A stretch of 45,466 bases of DNA. It comes from a virus. Taxonomy: Duplodnaviria; Heunggongvirae; Uroviricota; Caudoviricetes. Shown here one piece after another: positions 32,498 through 40,260 of the stretch (positions within the stretch are counted from its first letter, which is position 1; each line of letters starts with the position of its first letter). Both the position numbers and the translations under genes were made by a program. Under the pieces are notes generated by a model that was not told where the DNA came from, made no database searches, and was given only the letters and a program-made list of their open reading frames with translations. Location: IMG/VR virus record IMGVR_UViG_2609459834_000005. The stretch is one strand, 5' to 3'.

Positions 32498-32749
32498 TTA
32501 TTCTCCTGAAAAAGCAGAAAAGCCAGCTTTTATTCCGATCTCTTTCAATGCCTGTAATGAAGTGACAAACTCACCTTCGCGCAAGATAAATCCGTCCGTG
32601 ACCCGAGCATCCACAAAATTAATTAACGCAGCCCCATTCTTTCGCAAACACATAATGCGGTAATGACTAACAAGATTTCCATTTTCAACGCACACAGCAT
32701 AGAGGCCATCTTCACAAAAAATTTTACGCAGTTCTTCGATGTTCATCAT
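32498..32749 (-). CDS. hypothetical protein (83 aa); possibly Rem by length and position
   Basis: Track ORF between hokD terminator and ydfU; identity not recognised. Confidence 0.4.
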   Translation of the reverse strand: MMNIEELRKIFCEDGLYAVCVENGNLVSHYRIMCLRKNGAALINFVDARVTDGFILREGEFVTSLQALKEIGIKAGFSAFSGE

Positions 32750-32868
32750 CAGAATCCTTCCGGATAATTAGCTCTCCCCTTTAAGGGACCATCCCTCTTA
32801 TCCCTGCGCGCTACTTAAGTATTTTTGATTCTATTCCGGCACCGTCCAGAACTTCAAACGCGTTGAAA

Positions 32869-32897
32869 ATAAAAACAAAAACCCGCCGAAGCGGGTT
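32869..32897 (-). terminator. rho-independent terminator after hokD
   Basis: acccgc-cgaa-gcgggt hairpin followed on minus strand by TTTTTGTTTTT. Confidence 0.6.
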
Positions 32898-32966
32898 AAG
32901 TGCGGGTGCGTTGAGGATGCCTGCCACATCAGAGGTGGCGAGGGATTTCTCCCCCGCCGGGTCTCT

Positions 32967-33122
32967 TACTCCTCAGGTTCGTAAGCTGTGAAGACAGCGA
33001 CCTCCGTCTGGCCGGTTCGGATTCGTACCTCGCAGAGGTCTTTCCTCGTTACCAGTGCCGTCACTATGACGGTTAAACAGATGACGATCAGGGCGATTAA
33101 CATCGCCTTTTGCTGCTTCATA
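32967..33122 (-). CDS. hokD: Hok-family type I toxin HokD/RelF (51 aa)
   Basis: Hand translation gives MKQQKAMLIALIVICLTVIVTALVTRKDLCEVRIRTGQTEVAVFTAYEPEE. Confidence 0.9.
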
Positions 33123-33192
33123 GCCTGCTTCTCCTGTCAACGCAAAGCAGAAGTGTCACCTTCGGTGCGAAACAGAGATGTCATGCTTTGGT

Positions 33193-33480
33193 TCAGAGAA
33201 TGCGTTTGACCGCCTCGCTATATACTTCCGAGCGTTCTCTTTTCCCAACAGAAATCACGAAAACGACAACTTTCTCGTCTATAACCTGGTATACAAGGCG
33301 ATAGCCTGAAGACCGGAGCTTAATCTTGTAACAATCAGGCATACCACGGAGCTTGTTTGCTTCAATCCGGGGTGACTCAAGTACTTCAACCAGCTTCTTT
33401 TTCAACTGTTCACGTACCGTCGAGCCCAGCTTTCGCCATTCCTTTAGTGCCCGCTCGTCAAAATCCAGAAAATACGCCAT
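33193..33480 (-). CDS. relE: mRNA interferase toxin RelE
   Basis: 95-aa sequence matches remembered RelE. Confidence 0.92.
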   Translation of the reverse strand: MAYFLDFDERALKEWRKLGSTVREQLKKKLVEVLESPRIEANKLRGMPDCYKIKLRSSGYRLVYQVIDEKVVVFVISVGKRERSEVYSEAVKRIL

Positions 33481-33719
33481 CAGAGTTCATCCAGCGTCAC
33501 ACGTACTGGCTTAGGATTACGAAGCCGTTCTTTCACTATCTCCACAAGTTCAGCATCTTCATCACTCAGGAGTGTCTGTTTGAACGGCAAGCGTTCATTG
33601 TCAGCGATATACTCGAGCATGAGACGAAGCGCTTCAGAAGGAGTTACACCCATTTTTTCAAGCGCGGCGTAAGAACGCGCTTTAAGTTCATCGTCAATAC
33701 GCAGGTTAATGCTACCCAT
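33480..33719 (-). CDS. relB: antitoxin RelB
   Basis: 79-aa sequence matches remembered RelB. Confidence 0.92.
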   Translation of the reverse strand: MGSINLRIDDELKARSYAALEKMGVTPSEALRLMLEYIADNERLPFKQTLLSDEDAELVEIVKERLRNPKPVRVTLDEL

Positions 33720-33730
33720 GTCTTACACCT

Positions 33731-33756
33731 CTTGTAATTACAAATGTCATTACAAG
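33731..33756 (-). promoter_or_regulatory. relBE operator-like palindrome (CTTGTAAT...ATTACAAG)
   Basis: 26-bp region with inverted 8-mers just upstream of relB start. Confidence 0.55.
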
Positions 33757-34049
33757 TATCGCACTACAACATGCTTAGGGCAAGTCACGAAGGAAGTCAG
33801 AAAGTAGTCGTAAGAACGGTGATCACTGTCCGCTTTGTGCCAGGAGCAGCCATTGCTAAGTCCATCCTGTATTGTGCAGGTCAGCTCGTTTTTAAAGAGT
33901 CCGGCCATCATCTTACTGGTACAGACACCATATACTTTGTGACGGTCAGGCTACATATGCACAACTCAACTTATTCATCTATTTTTTGCTTTAGCATGTC
34001 AGTGTTGCTTTCTCGTCGGCGGGTGAGCGGTGACCTGACCTGTCGATAA
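33744..34049 (+). CDS. hypothetical protein (101 aa), YdfV-like by position and length
   Basis: Track ORF between relB and flxA. Confidence 0.35.
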   Translation: MSLQVSHYNMLRASHEGSQKVVVRTVITVRFVPGAAIAKSILYCAGQLVFKESGHHLTGTDTIYFVTVRLHMHNSTYSSIFCFSMSVLLSRRRVSGDLTCR

Positions 34050-34200
34050 AGGAACGTAGCACGTTTTATGCAACACCCGCATGCGGCAGAAAATTATTGC
34101 CGAACGTTTACCCCTGTCAACAAGCTTTACTTTCTGAGGCGCGCCAGCCCGCGAGGAAAACAATCTGAACATCAAACAATTAATGACACAAGAAATACGA

Positions 34201-34227
34201 TTAAAGATTTTTTTGTGCATGCCGATA
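34201..34227 (+). promoter_or_regulatory. sigma-28 (FliA)-type promoter for flxA: TAAAGATT-N11-GCCGATAG
   Basis: Close match to TAAAGTTT-N11-GCCGATAA, ~25 nt upstream of flxA start. Confidence 0.6.
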
Positions 34228-34251
34228 GTGCTTTTTTAAAAGGAGAAATCT

Positions 34252-34584
34252 ATGTCTGTCACAATTCAGGGAAATACCTCAACCGTTATTTCAAACAACT
34301 CCGCCCCGGAAGGAACATCAGAAATAGCCAAAATCACAAGACAAATTCAGGTGCTGACTGAAAAGCTTGGGAAAATCTCATCGGAAGAGGGGATGACGAC
34401 ACAGCAGAAAAAAGAAATGGCTGCATTGGTACAGAAGCAAATTGAAAGCCTCAGGGCTCAACTGGAGCAGTTGTTAAGGCAGCAGGCAGAGAAAAAGAAT
34501 AAAGACGCGACAGTTCAGCCTGATAAAAAAGAAGAGAAAAAAGACGATACAAATACCGCTGGCACCATTGATATTTACGTCTAA
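34252..34584 (+). CDS. flxA: FlxA (FliA-regulated protein)
   Basis: 110 aa MSVTIQGNTSTVISNNSAPEG..., matches remembered FlxA. Confidence 0.9.
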   Translation: MSVTIQGNTSTVISNNSAPEGTSEIAKITRQIQVLTEKLGKISSEEGMTTQQKKEMAALVQKQIESLRAQLEQLLRQQAEKKNKDATVQPDKKEEKKDDTNTAGTIDIYV

Positions 34585-34598
34585 GTGACAGCCGTATT

Positions 34599-34625
34599 GT
34601 GGCCCTCATCGGGCCACTTTTCGCC
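34599..34625 (+). terminator. rho-independent terminator after flxA
   Basis: gtggccc-tcatc-gggccac hairpin followed by TTTT. Confidence 0.6.
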
Positions 34626-34999
34626 ATCAGCCTTTTCTTTAAAGACATATTATCTTTGTATCATTTCTGATAGTTAACATTACAAGATATAAGTAATGGA
34701 CGCACTCCCAATTAGTCTATTTAAATCGCCACGAGTTTAACTGACAACCCATGATCAATTATGAATTGCAACTATTTCTGTAGTCACTTTTGTGGGGACA
34801 GTCCACAAAACTGCCAACTTCCGCTTCTTGCTCTTAGCGGACATTAGCATAGGCTATTTACCATAACGCCTCATTACGCGCACCGCCCAGACTGACTCAG
34901 CGCGTTTATGGCATATCCCCGGTAAAACAAGTAACAAACCACCCGAAAATGAACATCAGAAACGCGACTTAAGAATCTACCCTATGAATGGATATGCAC

Positions 35000-36400
35000 T
35001 CAACCGAATCGATCTTGGTTTCAATCTATTTTATCGGGATCAGGCTTCTTTTTAGGTAACTTCGGGGGCTTAACTTGCTGATGACTTTGCGTTCGGCGCG
35101 TAAGCCAGGGATGGTCAGCTTTAGATTTAACATAGTATTTTGAGCGTAAATCAATACGGGCATTATCCACTCGTTCATGGACACTCTTTTCATCATCCAG
35201 TGGTATAGGCTCCGGGCCATCAACATACTTTTCCCAGCCCAGCGCTTTCCCGTCATACAGAACGTTAATTTCACCGTCAAAGTTCTCACATACAGTAACA
35301 ACCGAATGCCTAAGTCGATATCCCCGGCCCTCACTGCGTACCTGAAACGCACTGCTTTTGTACTGGAAAGTGAGATTTTTAGACAGAACGCGCTTCGCCT
35401 GTAGGCTGAAGATATAACCCAGTTCCTCTTCAGAATGGTGCACATCAAGATGAGCATTATCAGTAGTACGAGGCGACGTAGCGAACCGGTTGTTATAGGC
35501 TTCAATAAAGGTCGGCAACCATGCATTTGCTGTTTCAATATCACTGATATTCTGAAGCCGCATTTCTTTGACCAGCCTGTCCTGTAGTGTCTGATTGGCG
35601 CGCTCTACCCGCCCTTTTGCCTGCGGGCTGTTGGCATGGATTGGCTCGATGCCCAGTGTCTTTATCGCACGAGTGAACTGGGTCAGCTCACCTTCCCGCT
35701 CTGGGTTATTTACCCTGAATATACTGTGTCTATCAGAGTAGAGAGCGAGCGGTACGCCATGATCATTAAGGTAACCCCGGAGGGTTTCCATGTAAGCCCG
35801 GGTTGTTTCAGCAGGCACAAAACGCAACGCCATCAACGCACTGGTGGCATCATCAATGAAAACGATCAGTGTACATCTGGGGCCTCGATTTTCAAACCAG
35901 TCATGAGGTGAGCCATCAATCTGGATCAGTTCACCGTAAGATGGTCGTCGCATGCGGCGTTGATATATACGGGCAATTTTACGACGGCGTTCACGCCATA
36001 ACCCCTCTTCTATCATCCACTTTCTGAGAGTTTCAACGGATAAAGATAAACCGTGTATCTCGCGCAATTTTTCGCACGCAAACGTAGGTCCAAAATCAGC
36101 GTAACGGCCTTTGAGGAGTGAAATTACTGTTGCTCTGAATTCAGTAGAAAAGGAATTATTAGGACGCTTTCCACGTCGGTGGGAAACCAGACCAGAAGGC
36201 CCTTCATTTCTATACCGTTGCACCAGACGTTTAACCTGCCGAATAGAAATGCCAATGCGTGCCGCAGCTTGTTCCTGAGTAATATGTCGATTAATTGACT
36301 CCTGAATAATCTGAAGTCGGTGGAGTTCCTTATGACTCATCGTAACAGTCTCTTTGATCATGAAAAATCCCCCAGAGAATTGTCTGGGGACATTTTAGAA
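35000..36400 (-). mobile_element. inserted IS-like element with a single DDE transposase gene (IS481/ISNCY-like); ends not resolved
   Basis: 446-aa transposase ORF; flanking ORF appears truncated at the element edge. Confidence 0.5.
35021..36361 (-). CDS. DDE-type transposase (N-terminal HTH, integrase-core-like catalytic domain)
   Basis: Track ORF 446 aa; family assignment uncertain. Confidence 0.75.
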   Translation of the reverse strand: MIKETVTMSHKELHRLQIIQESINRHITQEQAAARIGISIRQVKRLVQRYRNEGPSGLVSHRRGKRPNNSFSTEFRATVISLLKGRYADFGPTFACEKLREIHGLSLSVETLRKWMIEEGLWRERRRKIARIYQRRMRRPSYGELIQIDGSPHDWFENRGPRCTLIVFIDDATSALMALRFVPAETTRAYMETLRGYLNDHGVPLALYSDRHSIFRVNNPEREGELTQFTRAIKTLGIEPIHANSPQAKGRVERANQTLQDRLVKEMRLQNISDIETANAWLPTFIEAYNNRFATSPRTTDNAHLDVHHSEEELGYIFSLQAKRVLSKNLTFQYKSSAFQVRSEGRGYRLRHSVVTVCENFDGEINVLYDGKALGWEKYVDGPEPIPLDDEKSVHERVDNARIDLRSKYYVKSKADHPWLTRRTQSHQQVKPPKLPKKKPDPDKID

Positions 36401-36814
36401 TGGTTCAAAGGGGACATTACAGCTTGGTGTTAACAATAGCCTGCTTCTCCTTGCCTTCCGGCACTCGCGACAGATTATGTTTAGACGACTGTCGTAGCGA
36501 CGTATTTCTCCGTCAGGTAATGACCAGATAAGGTCCGGATCAACCACAGCAGGTTTCTTCACCTTTGCCCTCGAGAGTTTTTTGCGGGCGTTTTGCCAGT
36601 CCTTACGCGCCTGTTCAGACGGGAATAACCCGTAACCAGAGCTGTATACATCGCCACTGGCAACCAGCTCTCTGGCCAGAACGCTCATCAGATATCTTGT
36701 TGCCCCAGTTTTAGCTTCCAGTTGTCGTAACGTCTCGCGCCCACTCTGGCGTACGAGTTCCACCACCTGCCCTTTAATTTTTTCCCGCTCTTCTTGTGTA
36801 AAAACTTTTGCCAC
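36395..36814 (-). pseudogene. phage replication-region gene, probably 3'-truncated by the transposase insertion
   Basis: 139-aa ORF ending within a few nt of the presumed IS boundary; sits at the lambda P position. Confidence 0.35.
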
Positions 36815-36854
36815 AAGTCCTCCTGAACATTACTTTATACCCTAAAATCAACAC

Positions 36855-37874
36855 TTATCCCCTGAAACCAGGCGGAATTTCTGTATCCGGTTCAGAAATA
36901 TGATTCACACAACGCTGTACAGGTGAACGTCCCAGGCGGATGACCAGTTCGTCCCATTTTTCGCGGAGTTTTGACGGGCTCATGATGTTTTTTACCCAGA
37001 ATTGATCTCGCTGTACCCGACCAAACATTTCGCAAATTTGTCTGTGGCTTCTGCCATCCAGCATCCGCATTGTGCGCACGTCATTGGCCCAGGCTGTCCA
37101 GTTAGGCTCTTTTGGTCGCATGATCTCTCCATCGTCGCTGGCAGCCTGTTCGTAAAGGTTCACGATCCGCCCCCAAATCCACTGCGCACACGCCAAATCC
37201 TCCCTGCTACCCCACTGGCGTTTTTTCGCACTAAACACAACCGCGTCGGGGTTCCGGGTTAAAAAATCCTGTTCAGCGGTCTGCTGGTCCGGTTGCGAAG
37301 CTTCCGGACGAAAAGTGTTTTTATTCTCTGTAGTAATCTCTGTTGTATTCTCTGTAAGATCATCAGGCCATTTTGACCCGATGACATTGGGTCGTTTTGA
37401 ACCAATGGAGCGTTTCATTTTGACCTCTTCCATCGTGTCATTTTGACCTGATGGAGCGGCGCATTTTAAACCGATGGATTCGCTCAATTTGCCACCATCT
37501 AAAAGCTCGCTCCCGTAGTTGATCGTGTAGAAATTGGTCATATCGCGCTTTGATTTATTGAGCTTTTCACAACGCAAAAGCCCCAGCGTTTTCAGACTTG
37601 CAAACGCGCGCTTTAACGTTGACTCTGACCAGAATGGGAACTGTTCCAGCCATTGTTCCGTTGTGTTGTAAATCCAGCGAACACCATCACATTCCATGCC
37701 GGAATTGGTATCTCTCAACCAGCAATGCAACTGCTGCAACACAATGGCTTCATTTAAGCCAATCTTCATCGCAAGCTGTGTGTTTATAACCAGTGGGCGT
37801 TCAGCAAAAAGAAGGCTCATAATTCCATCCAGCTTTTTGTTGGTATTGCTGTCGATACGCAAGTTTGAAAGCAA
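36855..37874 (-). CDS. replication initiator O-like protein
   Basis: 339-aa ORF downstream of the cro/cI-like pair, with internal iterons. Confidence 0.65.
   Translation of the reverse strand: MLSNLRIDSNTNKKLDGIMSLLFAERPLVINTQLAMKIGLNEAIVLQQLHCWLRDTNSGMECDGVRWIYNTTEQWLEQFPFWSESTLKRAFASLKTLGLLRCEKLNKSKRDMTNFYTINYGSELLDGGKLSESIGLKCAAPSGQNDTMEEVKMKRSIGSKRPNVIGSKWPDDLTENTTEITTENKNTFRPEASQPDQQTAEQDFLTRNPDAVVFSAKKRQWGSREDLACAQWIWGRIVNLYEQAASDDGEIMRPKEPNWTAWANDVRTMRMLDGRSHRQICEMFGRVQRDQFWVKNIMSPSKLREKWDELVIRLGRSPVQRCVNHISEPDTEIPPGFRG
37325..37480. repeat. origin-like iterons inside the O-like gene: five ~16-bp CATTTTGACC-GATGG repeats at ~23-bp spacing plus three 12-bp TCTCTGT-type repeats
   Basis: Direct repeats read by eye at 37369, 37393, 37415, 37439, 37462 and 37325-37360. 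Confidence 0.55.
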
Positions 37875-38322
37875 TTGCTTTTTCTATAAGTTCGTCAGTT
37901 TCACGATCCACTACGGCAGGATCAGCAAAAAGCAGTCCGGACTCCACCACATCGCCATATTCTTTGTTTAACCCGGCGATCATGTACGTGATGCTTTTTC
38001 CGTCACTAATTTCACGATACAACCTGAAATCATTAATCCGAATAGCCTCCATAATTGCAGGCACTAGCGCCGTGAACTTTTCACGCTTATCCCTGGTGTC
38101 GATAGCCTTCCAGCGTTCGAATATCTTCACTCGATTAACGCCAAGTGCTCGCTGATCAACCGCGCCACCTTCATCTGTGACACGCTGAACATCGATGTTC
38201 GGGCGCTCTTTCAAAGCCCAGAATGCTTCAGTGATTAATATCGTCGCCTGCTCCTGTGTCATTCCTGGTCGACATATCCAGGCATCCAGAGCCTCACGAG
38301 CCTGTTCAGGAGTGATTTTCAT
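37801..38322 (-). CDS. YdaT-like protein (cII position)
   Basis: 173-aa ORF; segment RWKAIDTRDKREKFTALVPAIMEAI resembles Rac YdaT as remembered. Confidence 0.45.
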   Translation of the reverse strand: MKITPEQAREALDAWICRPGMTQEQATILITEAFWALKERPNIDVQRVTDEGGAVDQRALGVNRVKIFERWKAIDTRDKREKFTALVPAIMEAIRINDFRLYREISDGKSITYMIAGLNKEYGDVVESGLLFADPAVVDRETDELIEKAIAFKLAYRQQYQQKAGWNYEPSFC

Positions 38323-40202: not shown

Positions 40203-40260
40203 TTTCTGGTGACGTTTGGCGGTATCAGTTTTACTCCGTGACTGCTCTGCCGCCCTTTTT
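40203..40260 (+). ncRNA. dicF: DicF small RNA (ftsZ-targeting) with intrinsic terminator
   Basis: tttctggtgacgtttggcggtatcagttttactccgtgactgctctgccgcccttttt matches remembered DicF. Confidence 0.88.

What the first reader, a model, noticed from the sequence alone, without database searches (positions are those of the whole stretch)
32869..33756. relBE type II module with a downstream intact hokD type I toxin and an operator palindrome
relB, relE and hokD are intact and followed by a strong terminator; the relB upstream region holds a 26-bp palindrome built from TTGTAAT-type hexads. Hok toxins normally need an antisense Sok RNA; whether a sok-like promoter exists opposite the hokD 5' region is unclear from sequence.
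Basis: partly seen in the sequence, partly recalled or inferred. Interest (0 to 1): 0.35.

Follow-up and report, generated by a model that had tools for sequence, protein, structure and literature searches.

The report
relBE-hokD operon lacking Sok antitoxin
This is the long-known relB-relE-hokD (relBEF) operon of the Qin-type prophage of E. coli, base-for-base identical to strain K-12; its small membrane-toxin gene hokD is intact, but the antisense-RNA (Sok) control region that the same gene carries in most other E. coli is missing, and hokD is transcribed from the RelB/RelE-repressed promoter instead.

Summary
Window 32860-33860 has no mismatch to E. coli K-12 MG1655 Qin prophage relB-relE-hokD. 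RelB, RelE and HokD are intact. The "26-bp palindrome" is the published relO operator, made of four [A/T]TGT[A/C]A hexads. The terminator is real.

In at least 4232 of 5426 complete E. coli genomes the same hokD ORF follows a ~190-nt hok leader (promoter, tac, mok start, Sok target, sok promoter). Rfam's sok model scores that leader at 104-117 bits. In the window the leader is replaced, 14 nt upstream of the ATG, by the 3' end of a relBE cassette, and the sok model finds nothing. Only the Shine-Dalgarno sequence, the ORF, an orphan 3' fbi element and the terminator survive. hokD is therefore a third cistron under RelB2E/relO transcriptional control, as published (relBEF co-transcription; "inactivated by genomic rearrangement").

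One side observation may be new. The ~713-bp relBE cassette, about 99% identical across genera, ends precisely at TTGACA. In about half of its contexts it abuts the start region of very different hok genes.

The parts
33135..33847 (-). Discrete relBE cassette: promoter, relO, relB, relE and a 57-nt 3' tail. The same unit is found in many genera and contexts.
   Evidence: BLAST of the window against 38 loci from other genera. Homology (83-99.9%) starts at 33840-33855 and stops at 33135 wherever no hok follows.
33778..33783 (-). Probable -35 of PrelBE (TTGCCC).
   Evidence: Read from the sequence. A 17-nt spacer separates it from GATACT. This is an inference: at 8/12 matches it falls below the scan tool's threshold. 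An RpoD holoenzyme site was reported in the relB-ydfV spacer (PMC3946193).
33755..33760 (-). Probable -10 of PrelBE (GATACT), overlapped by the operator.
   Evidence: Sequence. PMC2812701 states that relO overlaps the -10 box.
33732..33755 (.). relO operator: four hexads TTGTAA | TGACAT | TTGTAA | TTACAA, forming two abutting 12-bp half-sites. With the flanking C/G it is the 26-bp palindrome 33731-33756.
   Evidence: It matches the published core [A/T]TGT[A/C]A repeated four times, with one pseudo-palindromic and one perfect half-site (PMC2812701).
33480..33719 (-). relB: ribbon-helix-helix antitoxin and repressor, 79 aa.
   Evidence: Pfam PF04221, 112.3 bits. Identical to K-12 b1564.
33193..33480 (-). 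relE: ribosome-dependent mRNA endonuclease toxin, 95 aa. Its start overlaps the relB stop.
   Evidence: Pfam PF05016, 51 bits. Identical to K-12 b1563.
33136..33192 (-). 57-nt 3' tail of the relBE cassette, the spacer between relE and the hokD SD. It is not derived from a hok leader. It contains a 15-codon ORF (ATG 33184 to TGA 33137).
   Evidence: No similarity above shuffles to nine hok leaders. The tail is conserved with relBE in contexts without hok.
33131..33135 (-). hokD Shine-Dalgarno AGGAG. Homology to intact hok leaders begins here; the breakpoint is 33135|33136.
   Evidence: Megablast matches in thousands of genomes end at window 33135. Alignments A1 and A3.
32966..33121 (-). hokD (relF): Hok/Gef-family membrane toxin, 51 aa, intact.
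   Evidence: Pfam PF01848, 82.9 bits. The CDS is identical to that of intact loci. The HokD CDS was toxic on overexpression (bioRxiv 10.1101/2025.08.07.668861).
32973..33140 (-). Remnant of the mok reading frame overlapping hokD. The native mok ATG is lost; only a TTG remains.
   Evidence: ORF list. In intact relatives the mok ATG lies about 60 nt upstream of the hok ATG, in the part that is missing here.
32981..32983 (-). Codon 47, TAC, within TACG: the TadA A-to-I editing site (Tyr to Cys).
   Evidence: Sequence. hokD mRNA editing of about 6% is reported in PMC12214031 and PMC5630033.
32904..32916 (-). Orphan fbi (fold-back inhibition) element CCUCAACGCACCC in the 3' UTR.
   Evidence: In the intact C9 mRNA the predicted MFE structure pairs the 5' tac GGGUGCUUGAGG with exactly this element (duplex -31.9 kcal/mol). 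In the window, its best partner within the relBE part scores -18.0, against -20.8 +/- 2.4 for shuffles.
32870..32897 (-). Intrinsic terminator of the operon, which is the native hok terminator.
   Evidence: It is identical in intact hokD loci.
33818..33837 (.). 5' arm of an imperfect terminal inverted repeat of the cassette (CAAAGCGGACAGTGATCACC).
   Evidence: Local alignment with the reverse complement of 33143-33160 scores 24, against 12 +/- 2.7 in shuffles (3 of 2000 reach it). I saw it by eye first, so the test is post hoc.
33143..33160 (.). 3' arm of the same inverted repeat (GGTGACACTTCTGCTTTG).

Best explanation
The region is the relB-relE-hokD (relBEF) operon of a Qin-type lambdoid prophage. 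One promoter, overlapped by the relO operator, drives a tricistronic mRNA that ends at the hok terminator.

RelB dimers, with RelE as co-repressor (conditional cooperativity), occupy the four hexads and keep transcription low. When RelB is degraded (Lon, translation stress) or RelE is in excess, the operon is derepressed.

hokD is an intact Hok-family toxin gene that has lost its own promoter, tac/ucb elements, mok start, Sok target and sok gene. These were replaced, 14 nt upstream of the ATG, by the 3' end of a relBE cassette. There is therefore no antisense antitoxin. HokD output is limited by three things:

- RelBE-dependent transcriptional repression (shown in the literature);
- probably poor translation of a start region that normally depends on mok-coupled ribosomes (inferred);
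- the need for rare A-to-I editing to create the second cysteine (editing is published; its effect on HokD is inferred from HokB).
For: - **Identity to K-12:** 0 mismatches over 32860-33860, with K-12 annotation of relB, relE and hokD in Qin.
- **Operator:** matches the published relO architecture.
- **Leader replaced:** relatives C9, EDL933, Sanji and pEcoUTI1e carry a ~190-nt leader upstream of the same ORF, where the window has the relE 3' end.
- **Rfam test with positive controls:** RF01794 sok scores 104-117 bits on those four leaders. It gives no hit in window 31500-35500 at E<=10, nor in the whole window at gathering threshold.
- **Frequencies:** the intact leader is present at >=80% coverage in 4232 of 5426 genomes. 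The relBE-hokD junction is present in about 1160-1200.
- **sok promoter geometry:** in C9 it is TTGCCT-17-TAACCT, matching the geometry upstream of the annotated K-12 sokB and sokC starts. The corresponding window positions read TGTCAA and ACCTTC.
- **Annotation:** K-12 annotates sokB and sokC but no sokD.
- **Orphan fbi:**
- **Literature:** relBEF is one transcript and the relF part accumulates after toxin induction (PMC3598666). hokD is described as inactivated by genomic rearrangement with loss of canonical components (PMC12214031, citing Pedersen & Gerdes 1999). The intact relative hokW-sokW of phage Sp5 (93% identical over the same segment) is a working type I system (PMC8621323).
Against: - Nothing contradicts the identification.
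- The translation-level part is weak. The predicted energy to open the hokD start region (10.1 kcal/mol) is only modestly higher than for relB (7.9) and relE (8.3) in the same mRNA, so folding does not prove that HokD is poorly translated.
- I could not consult transcription-start maps of K-12, so an unannotated antisense start is excluded by sequence criteria only.
- The original description (Pedersen & Gerdes 1999) is not in the held library. Its content is cited second-hand.
Confidence: 0.88

Rival explanations
1. hokD is a silent relic. It is transcribed as a passenger on the relBEF mRNA but never translated into functional toxin, so the operon works purely as a type II relBE module.
For: - The literature classes hokD with the inactive chromosomal hok genes (PMC5630033 and PMC12214031).
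- mok, on which hok translation normally depends, is gone.
- Editing to the second Cys is only about 6%.
- From my own knowledge, not checked here: relB mutants that derepress the operon are viable.
Against: - The ORF and SD are intact and identical to those of working-type loci, and the HokD CDS is toxic when expressed.
- The hokD-containing part of the mRNA is the most abundant fragment after toxin induction.
- The same relBE cassette is joined to at least nine different Hok ORFs, nearly all full-length, always 1-13 nt before the ATG. Chance relics would not be expected to look like this.
Confidence: 0.3
2. A cryptic, non-homologous antisense RNA still controls hokD. It would be made from the weak plus-strand promoter-like site TTAACA-18-TAGCCT (33097-33126), start near 33133, and cover the SD.
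For: The site matches 8 of 12 consensus positions and would give a transcript complementary to the SD. Genuine sok promoters also have poor -10 boxes (TAACCT, CACTCT).
Against: - Its score of 7.6 is below the 90th percentile (8.2) of the best scores from random 221-nt segments of the window.
- It lies inside the conserved hokD codons and is equally present in intact loci that have their real sok promoter 38 nt away.
- No plus-strand terminator is found in 32500-34300. This tool also misses the Sok terminator in the positive control, so that negative is weak.
- Rfam gives no hit, K-12 has no such annotation, and no paper in the library mentions a sokD gene.
Confidence: 0.04
3. The 15-codon ORF in the cassette tail replaces mok. 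It runs from ATG 33184, 8 nt after the relE stop, to TGA 33137, 2 nt before the hokD SD. Ribosomes leaving relE would re-initiate on it, open the hokD start region, and so couple HokD synthesis to RelE synthesis.
For: The geometry fits translational coupling in the window. It fits even better in Klebsiella plasmid pC280_2, where the ORF's stop lies 6 nt before the hok ATG and the SD-ATG spacing is 0. The ORF's start is the most accessible of the four starts in the predicted mRNA fold (5.2 kcal/mol).
Against: - No SD precedes the ATG.
- The ATG is AGG in diverged copies of the cassette (L031, L036, L038, L042, L045, L047), so the ORF is not a conserved feature of the tail.
- K-12 has no annotated gene there.
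- The hok-linked copies are about 99% identical, so conservation cannot be tested.
Confidence: 0.1

Closest known systems
relBEF (relB-relE-hokD/relF) operon of the E. coli K-12 Qin cryptic prophage (b1564-b1562)
   Same: Identical in sequence over 32860-33860. Gene order, operator, spacer and terminator are the same, and so are the neighbours rem, ydfU, ydfV and flxA.
   Different: Only the wider context differs. The window is 99.69% identical to K-12 over 27847-35205. It also keeps about 2.8 kb (35206-38042) that K-12 has lost, so it comes from another E. coli strain with a fuller Qin-like prophage.
hokW-sokW of Stx2 phage Sp5 (VT2-Sakai) and the 'hokD' loci of most E. coli prophages
   Same: The Hok ORF, SD, 3' UTR with fbi, and terminator match (93-99% identity over window 32860/32894-33135). 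They occupy the same position in the lambdoid nin region, before the rem/DUF968/Q genes.
   Different: Those loci have their own promoter, tac, mok start and a sok gene (RF01794 at 104-117 bits), and hokW-sokW was shown to work as a type I pair (PMC8621323). The window has none of these upstream parts.
hok/sok of plasmid R1 and hokB/sokB, hokC/sokC of K-12
   Same: Same toxin family (PF01848). Same 3' fold-back element logic.
   Different: Sok is made from a promoter whose -35 overlaps the hok SD region. That promoter is destroyed at the breakpoint in the window.
Type II TA operons with a co-transcribed downstream passenger gene (e.g. mazEF-mazG)
   Same: The TA cassette carries a promoter/operator but no terminator of its own, so the next gene is read through (PMC5120126).
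   Different: Here the passenger is itself a toxin gene of another TA type, and the same pairing recurs with many hok alleles.

Membership tests
relBE type II toxin-antitoxin module (E. coli RelB/RelE) | RelB-family ribbon-helix-helix antitoxin encoded first | tested here: met
   PF04221, 112.3 bits, full length. Identical to K-12 RelB.
relBE type II toxin-antitoxin module (E. coli RelB/RelE) | RelE/ParE-superfamily toxin encoded second, translationally coupled | tested here: met
   PF05016, 51 bits. The relB stop and relE start share base 33480.
relBE type II toxin-antitoxin module (E. coli RelB/RelE) | relO operator: four [A/T]TGT[A/C]A hexads in two abutting 12-bp half-sites overlapping the -10 | tested here: met
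   TTGTAA/TGACAT/TTGTAA/TTACAA at 33755-33732, compared with PMC2812701.
relBE type II toxin-antitoxin module (E. coli RelB/RelE) | RelE cleaves mRNA on the ribosome; RelB neutralises it and is Lon-labile | not testable with these tools
   Taken from the literature for the identical K-12 proteins (PMC2812701, PMC3507626).
[quoted passage not shown] | Hok/Gef-family toxin ORF of about 50 aa | tested here: met
   PF01848, 82.9 bits.
[quoted passage not shown] | cis-encoded antisense Sok RNA with its own promoter opposite the leader | tested here: not met
   RF01794 is absent from the window but scores 104-117 bits in four intact relatives. The promoter positions read TGTCAA/ACCTTC.
[quoted passage not shown] | mok reading frame starting upstream and overlapping hok | tested here: not met
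   The mok ATG region is missing. Only a TTG-started remnant of the frame remains, 32973-33140.
[quoted passage not shown] | own promoter and 5' tac/ucb elements pairing with the 3' fbi | tested here: not met
   No part of the C9 leader upstream of the hokD SD is found at the relBE-hokD locus. The only other match in the window is a separate 27-nt hok start-region fragment at 36438-36464. fbi is present, but no partner scores better than chance.
[quoted passage not shown] | 3' fbi element and terminator | tested here: met
   CCUCAACGCACCC at 32916-32904, identical to C9 where it pairs with tac. Terminator.

The most novel reading that the evidence does not exclude
The relBE unit is a discrete mobile cassette of about 713 bp with imperfect terminal inverted repeats. 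It is about 99% identical across many enterobacterial genera and always ends at ...GCGTTGACA.

In about half of its distinct contexts, that end sits 1-13 nt upstream of the ATG of a hok gene. At least nine Hok proteins, 26-98% identical to each other, are involved, with at least eight different junction sequences. In one case the end abuts a complete hok leader in the opposite orientation. In each same-orientation case Sok/mok control is replaced by RelBE transcriptional control.

This would mean either that the cassette targets the hok translation-start region, or that sok-less hok placed under PrelBE is repeatedly selected. In other words, it would be a recurrent hybrid in which a type II module governs a type I toxin, rather than a one-off accident in K-12.
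Probability: 0.4. Interest if true: 0.55.

Novelty: already known. Interest (0 to 1): 0.2.

Why it matters
As submitted, the finding re-identifies a textbook locus. Its open question, whether hokD has a Sok, was settled in general terms in 1999. Here it is re-derived with explicit positive controls, and the breakpoint is placed to the nucleotide.

The practical value is a cleaner annotation. hokD here is a Hok-family gene, but the locus should not be counted as a type I toxin-antitoxin system, even though RefSeq labels it a "type I toxin-antitoxin system toxin".

The recurrent relBE-hok junction could matter more. It appears on IncHI2 and IncF plasmids and on chromosomes of many genera. If it reflects targeting or selection, it would be a natural example of one toxin-antitoxin type taking over control of another. 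It would also bear on how hok genes persist without an antisense antitoxin. A recent large survey of Hok diversity does not mention this association.

Tried and rejected
- **Residual hok-leader homology in the 57-nt relE-hokD spacer.** Smith-Waterman against nine leaders (C9, EDL933, pEcoUTI1e, Sanji, hokB, hokC, an R1-like Klebsiella leader, IncHI2, L023) gave scores within the shuffle distribution. A collinear 19-nt match to EDL933 was reached by 69 of 500 shuffles. Rejected.
- **Displaced leader.** I tested whether the hok leader was merely pushed upstream of relB, as a simple insertion would do. No part of the leader is found there. The only match outside the hokD SD is a separate 27-nt hok start-region fragment at 36438-36464. 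RF01794 does not hit upstream of the cassette in any of the 20 cassette loci searched. Rejected.
The consensus scan finds none. A graded scan finds only a background-level site. The terminator scan also fails on the true Sok terminator, so I relied on the Rfam model instead.
- **mRNA folding to decide whether the hokD start is occluded.** Opening energies are too similar to those of relB and relE. Inconclusive.
- **uORF-for-mok hypothesis.** Weakened by loss of the ATG in diverged cassettes.
- **Weak Rfam hits (isrK, rsmX, P9) on 32876-32981.** These are sub-threshold matches to the hok 3' UTR and terminator, and the isrK hit is also seen in three of the four intact loci. Not meaningful.
- **Papers not held:** the K-12 TSS map (PMC4288677), the Fozo/Storz 2008 review (PMC2593563), Gerdes 1986 (PMC1167073) and Bech 1985 (PMC554300). 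Pedersen & Gerdes 1999, which I did not try to fetch, is cited only through later papers.
Full report
**1. What is there**

Read on the minus strand, window 33790 to 32870 contains the following elements, in order.

| Element | Coordinates | Notes |
|---|---|---|
| Probable -35 | 33783-33778 | TTGCCC |
| Probable -10 | 33760-33755 | GATACT, after a 17-nt spacer |
| Operator (26 bp) | 33756-33731 | CTTGTAATGACATTTGTAATTACAAG |
| relB | 33719-33480 | |
| relE | 33480-33193 | start overlaps the relB stop by one base |
| Spacer | 33192-33122 | 71 nt, ends in AGGAG-N9-ATG |
| hokD | 33121-32966 | |
| 3' UTR | 32965-32898 | |
| Terminator | 32897-32880 | AACCCGC-TTCG-GCGGGTT, then TTTTGTTTTT |

Pfam assigns the three proteins to RelB (112 bits), the RelE/ParE toxin family (51 bits) and Hok/Gef (83 bits). 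The terminator hairpin is predicted at -11.3 kcal/mol. The 24-nt operator core occurs once in the window, with none in 100 shuffles. The one qualification is that the palindrome is imperfect: 12-nt arms at 92% complementarity, also readable as two adjacent 12-bp units.

**2. Identity**

Window 27847-35205 aligns without gaps to E. coli K-12 MG1655 positions 1,640,000-1,647,358 at 99.69%. None of the 23 mismatches falls in 32860-33860. In K-12 this stretch lies in the cryptic prophage Qin and is annotated relB (b1564), relE (b1563) and hokD (b1562). The flanking genes are ydfV and flxA on one side and rem, ydfU and the Q antiterminator homologue on the other.

The window is not K-12 itself. It retains about 2.8 kb (35206-38042) that K-12 lacks. 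Five other E. coli genomes, and one phage deposited as a complete genome (PhiR42_1 from ECOR13), match the locus at 100%.

**3. The operator**

The palindrome is the experimentally defined relO. Overgaard et al. (PMC2812701) showed by mutagenesis and hydroxyl-radical footprinting that RelB dimers occupy four hexads with core [A/T]TGT[A/C]A. These are arranged as one pseudo-palindromic and one perfect 12-bp half-site with no spacing allowed, and they overlap the -10 box. RelE acts as co-repressor. The window reads TTGTAA, TGACAT (ATGTCA on the other strand), TTGTAA, TTACAA at 33755-33732, which is exactly that architecture.

**4. Is there a Sok? No**

- **Homology stops at the SD.** Megablast of the region against 5,426 complete E. 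coli genomes shows hokD in 4,733 of them, but relBE plus hokD in only about 1,160-1,200. In all the others homology stops at window 33135, the first base of the SD.
- **Relatives have a full leader.** Alignment with four such relatives shows that the same ORF is preceded there by a canonical hok leader of about 190 nt. The four are C9 next to AIPR genes, EDL933 next to paa, Sanji, and plasmid pEcoUTI1e. The leader includes a promoter (TTGGCG-17-TAGAAT in C9) and a 5' GGGUGCUUGAGG element, which the fold of the C9 mRNA pairs with the 3' fbi (tac), and, by analogy with annotated hok loci, a mok ATG. The window has the end of relE instead.
- **Rfam test with positive controls.** Rfam's sok model RF01794 scores 104-117 bits on the four relatives (gathering score 59). 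It returns nothing in window 31500-35500 even at E<=10, and nothing in the whole window at gathering threshold.
- **The intact leader is the common state.** It is present at >=80% coverage in 4,232 genomes.
- **The sok promoter is destroyed.** In C9 it is TTGCCT-17-TAACCT on the opposite strand, and its -35 overlaps the bases just upstream of the hok SD. The annotated K-12 sokB and sokC start 7 nt after equivalent promoters. The breakpoint cuts through this -35. The corresponding window positions read TGTCAA (2/6 to consensus) and ACCTTC (0/6).
- **Only a background-level candidate remains.** The best plus-strand promoter-like site near the hokD 5' end is TTAACA-18-TAGCCT at 33097-33126. It scores 7.6, below the 90th percentile (8.2) of random segments, and it is equally present inside the conserved codons of intact loci.
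- **Annotation agrees.** K-12 annotates sokB and sokC but no sokD.

**5. What remains of the hok system**

The 3' UTR still carries the fold-back-inhibition element CCUCAACGCACCC (32916-32904). In the predicted structure of the intact C9 mRNA, this element pairs with the 5'-terminal GGGUGCUUGAGG (duplex -31.9 kcal/mol). In the window, its best partner anywhere in the relBE part scores -18.0 kcal/mol, which is no better than shuffles (-20.8 +/- 2.4). A TTG-started remnant of the mok frame overlaps hokD.

The 57-nt segment between the relE stop and the SD shows no similarity to any of nine hok leaders beyond chance. The leader was therefore replaced rather than mutated. No part of it upstream of the hokD SD is found at this locus; the only other match in the window is a separate hok start-region fragment at 36438-36464 (section 9).

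**6. How it most likely works**

*Shown in the literature for the identical K-12 sequence:*
- relB, relE and relF/hokD form one transcript from PrelBE.
- Deleting that promoter abolishes induction of the transcript.
- After induction of RelE, MazF, MqsR or HicA the mRNA is cleaved, and the hokD-containing 3' part becomes the most abundant fragment (PMC3598666).
- RelB2-RelE represses via relO by conditional cooperativity (PMC2812701, PMC3507626).
- The HokD coding sequence is toxic when overexpressed.
- hokD mRNA is edited by TadA at the TACG of codon 47 (32983-32981) in about 6% of transcripts, recoding Tyr to the Cys that is needed for toxicity in HokB.

*Inferred:* with no Sok and no mok, HokD synthesis is held down first by transcriptional repression. 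It is probably also held down by inefficient initiation at a start region that evolved to depend on mok-coupled ribosomes. Folding gives only weak support for the second point. The opening energy is 10.1 kcal/mol for hokD, against 7.9 for relB and 8.3 for relE in the same mRNA, and 11.3 for the inactive full-length C9 mRNA.

A 15-codon ORF in the tail (ATG 33184 to TGA 33137) could in principle couple hokD to relE translation. However, its ATG is not conserved in diverged cassettes, so I rate this low.

**7. Comparison with what is known**

The locus is the relBEF operon, first sequenced in 1985, with relF recognised as a hok homologue in 1986 (references listed). [quoted passage not shown]

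The nearest intact, experimentally characterised relative is hokW-sokW of Stx2 phage Sp5. It is 93% identical from the SD onward and works as a type I pair (PMC8621323).

Membership: the region is fully a relBE type II module. hokD is a Hok-family gene, but the locus fails three defining features of a hok/sok system: Sok, mok, and its own promoter with tac.

**8. A side result that may be new**

I scanned one genome per species with RelE and obtained 80 loci. In 26 of them relBE lies within a discrete unit corresponding to window 33135-33847. The unit is mostly 91-99.9% identical (83-84% in the three most diverged copies). The hosts include Kluyvera, Enterobacter, Citrobacter, Klebsiella, Pseudocitrobacter, Huaxiibacter, Buttiauxella, Superficieibacter, Pantoea and others. 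Its 3' end is always ...CTGCTTTGCGTTGACA, whatever follows. Its ends carry an imperfect inverted repeat (score 24 against 12 +/- 2.7; 3 of 2,000 shuffles reach it; this test is post hoc).

What follows the 3' end in the 26 copies:

| Context | Copies |
|---|---|
| hok ORF starting 1-13 nt downstream, same orientation | 14 |
| Complete hok leader (RF01794, 94.7 bits) in opposite orientation, beginning at the hok ATG (L023) | 1 |
| Unrelated flanks | 11 |

The 14 same-orientation cases involve nine or ten different Hok proteins, 26-98% identical to each other, and at least eight junction sequences. None of the hok-linked copies searched with Rfam keeps a hok leader upstream of the cassette.

The IncHI2-type version (relBE plus a different hok at the same junction as in the window) occurs at >=80% coverage in 451 plasmid records from Salmonella, Enterobacter, Klebsiella, Citrobacter and Escherichia. 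A Klebsiella IncFII/IncR plasmid has AGGAG abutting the ATG of an R1-like hok.

The cassette is nearly identical everywhere while the hok genes are highly divergent, so these look like repeated recent events rather than one old fusion. Whether this reflects target preference or selection for sok-less hok under PrelBE is unexplained. Within the held library, searches found no description of it, and a 2025-26 survey of 44,000 Hok homologues does not mention it. That is not proof of novelty.

**9. Verdict**

The finding is real, correctly interpreted and already known. Interest in the finding as given is low. The cassette-hok association is the only part that might repay further work.

Noticed in passing
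window 36436-36464 (minus strand), with 35021-36430: There is a second, orphan hok start region. GTGCCGGAAGGCAAGGAGAAGCAGGCTAT is identical to the last 27-29 nt of the intact hokD leader through the AT of the ATG. It is fused upstream to the 3' end of a DUF977 gene (36395-36814). It is cut right at the start codon by an insertion sequence whose transposase (35021-36361, HTH + rve_3) survives in K-12 only as the ydfW remnant. As a result, the 16 nt AGGAGAAGCAGGCTAT occur twice in direct orientation (36451-36436 and 33135-33120), bracketing IS-flxA-ydfV-relBE.
   Followed up: partly
window 35206-38042: About 2.8 kb is absent from K-12 MG1655. It contains most of the IS, the DUF977 gene, a 339-aa ORF with no Pfam hit, and part of a YdaT-like gene. 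K-12 Qin therefore carries a deletion relative to this strain, so the window is not from K-12.
   Followed up: partly
window 33135-33847; loci L009, L012-L047: The relBE cassette has precise ends and imperfect terminal inverted repeats, and it recurs at the start region of at least nine different hok genes on plasmids and chromosomes of many genera. The cassette ends in a perfect -35 hexamer, TTGACA.
   Followed up: partly
locus L023 (Citrobacter portucalensis) 1546-1711: Here the 3' end of the cassette abuts a complete hok leader/sok (RF01794, 94.7 bits) in the opposite orientation, starting exactly at the hok ATG. No hok ORF was found within the 2.7-kb locus.
   Followed up: partly
loci L037 (Kluyvera sp.) and L041 (Lelliottia sp.): These are relBE-hok copies in which the relE reading frame is interrupted early (codon 53 and codon 14) while a hok ORF is still present downstream.
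   Followed up: no
window 32876-32957 (minus strand): Sub-threshold Rfam match to isrK (25 bits, gathering score 50) over the hok 3' UTR and terminator. The same weak match appears in three of the four intact hokD loci, so it probably reflects shared terminator-type structure.
   Followed up: partly
window 33744-34049 (plus strand): The ydfV ORF (101 aa, no Pfam family) starts inside relO and runs divergently from relB. Roughly its first 100 nt lie within the relBE cassette and the rest lies outside it, so its reality as a gene is doubtful.
   Followed up: no
window 1430-1628, 26274-26659, 29170-29562, 40204-40255: Rfam gathering-level hits to IS009, two cspA-type thermoregulator leaders (the cspB/cspF region) and DicF. 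All are consistent with a Qin/Kim-type prophage context.
   Followed up: no
loci L002, L003 (E. coli C9, EDL933): In other lambdoid prophages, the slot immediately upstream of an intact hokD/sok locus holds different cargo: split AIPR abortive-infection genes in C9 and the paa adhesin in EDL933. This position appears to be a cargo (moron) hotspot.
   Followed up: no
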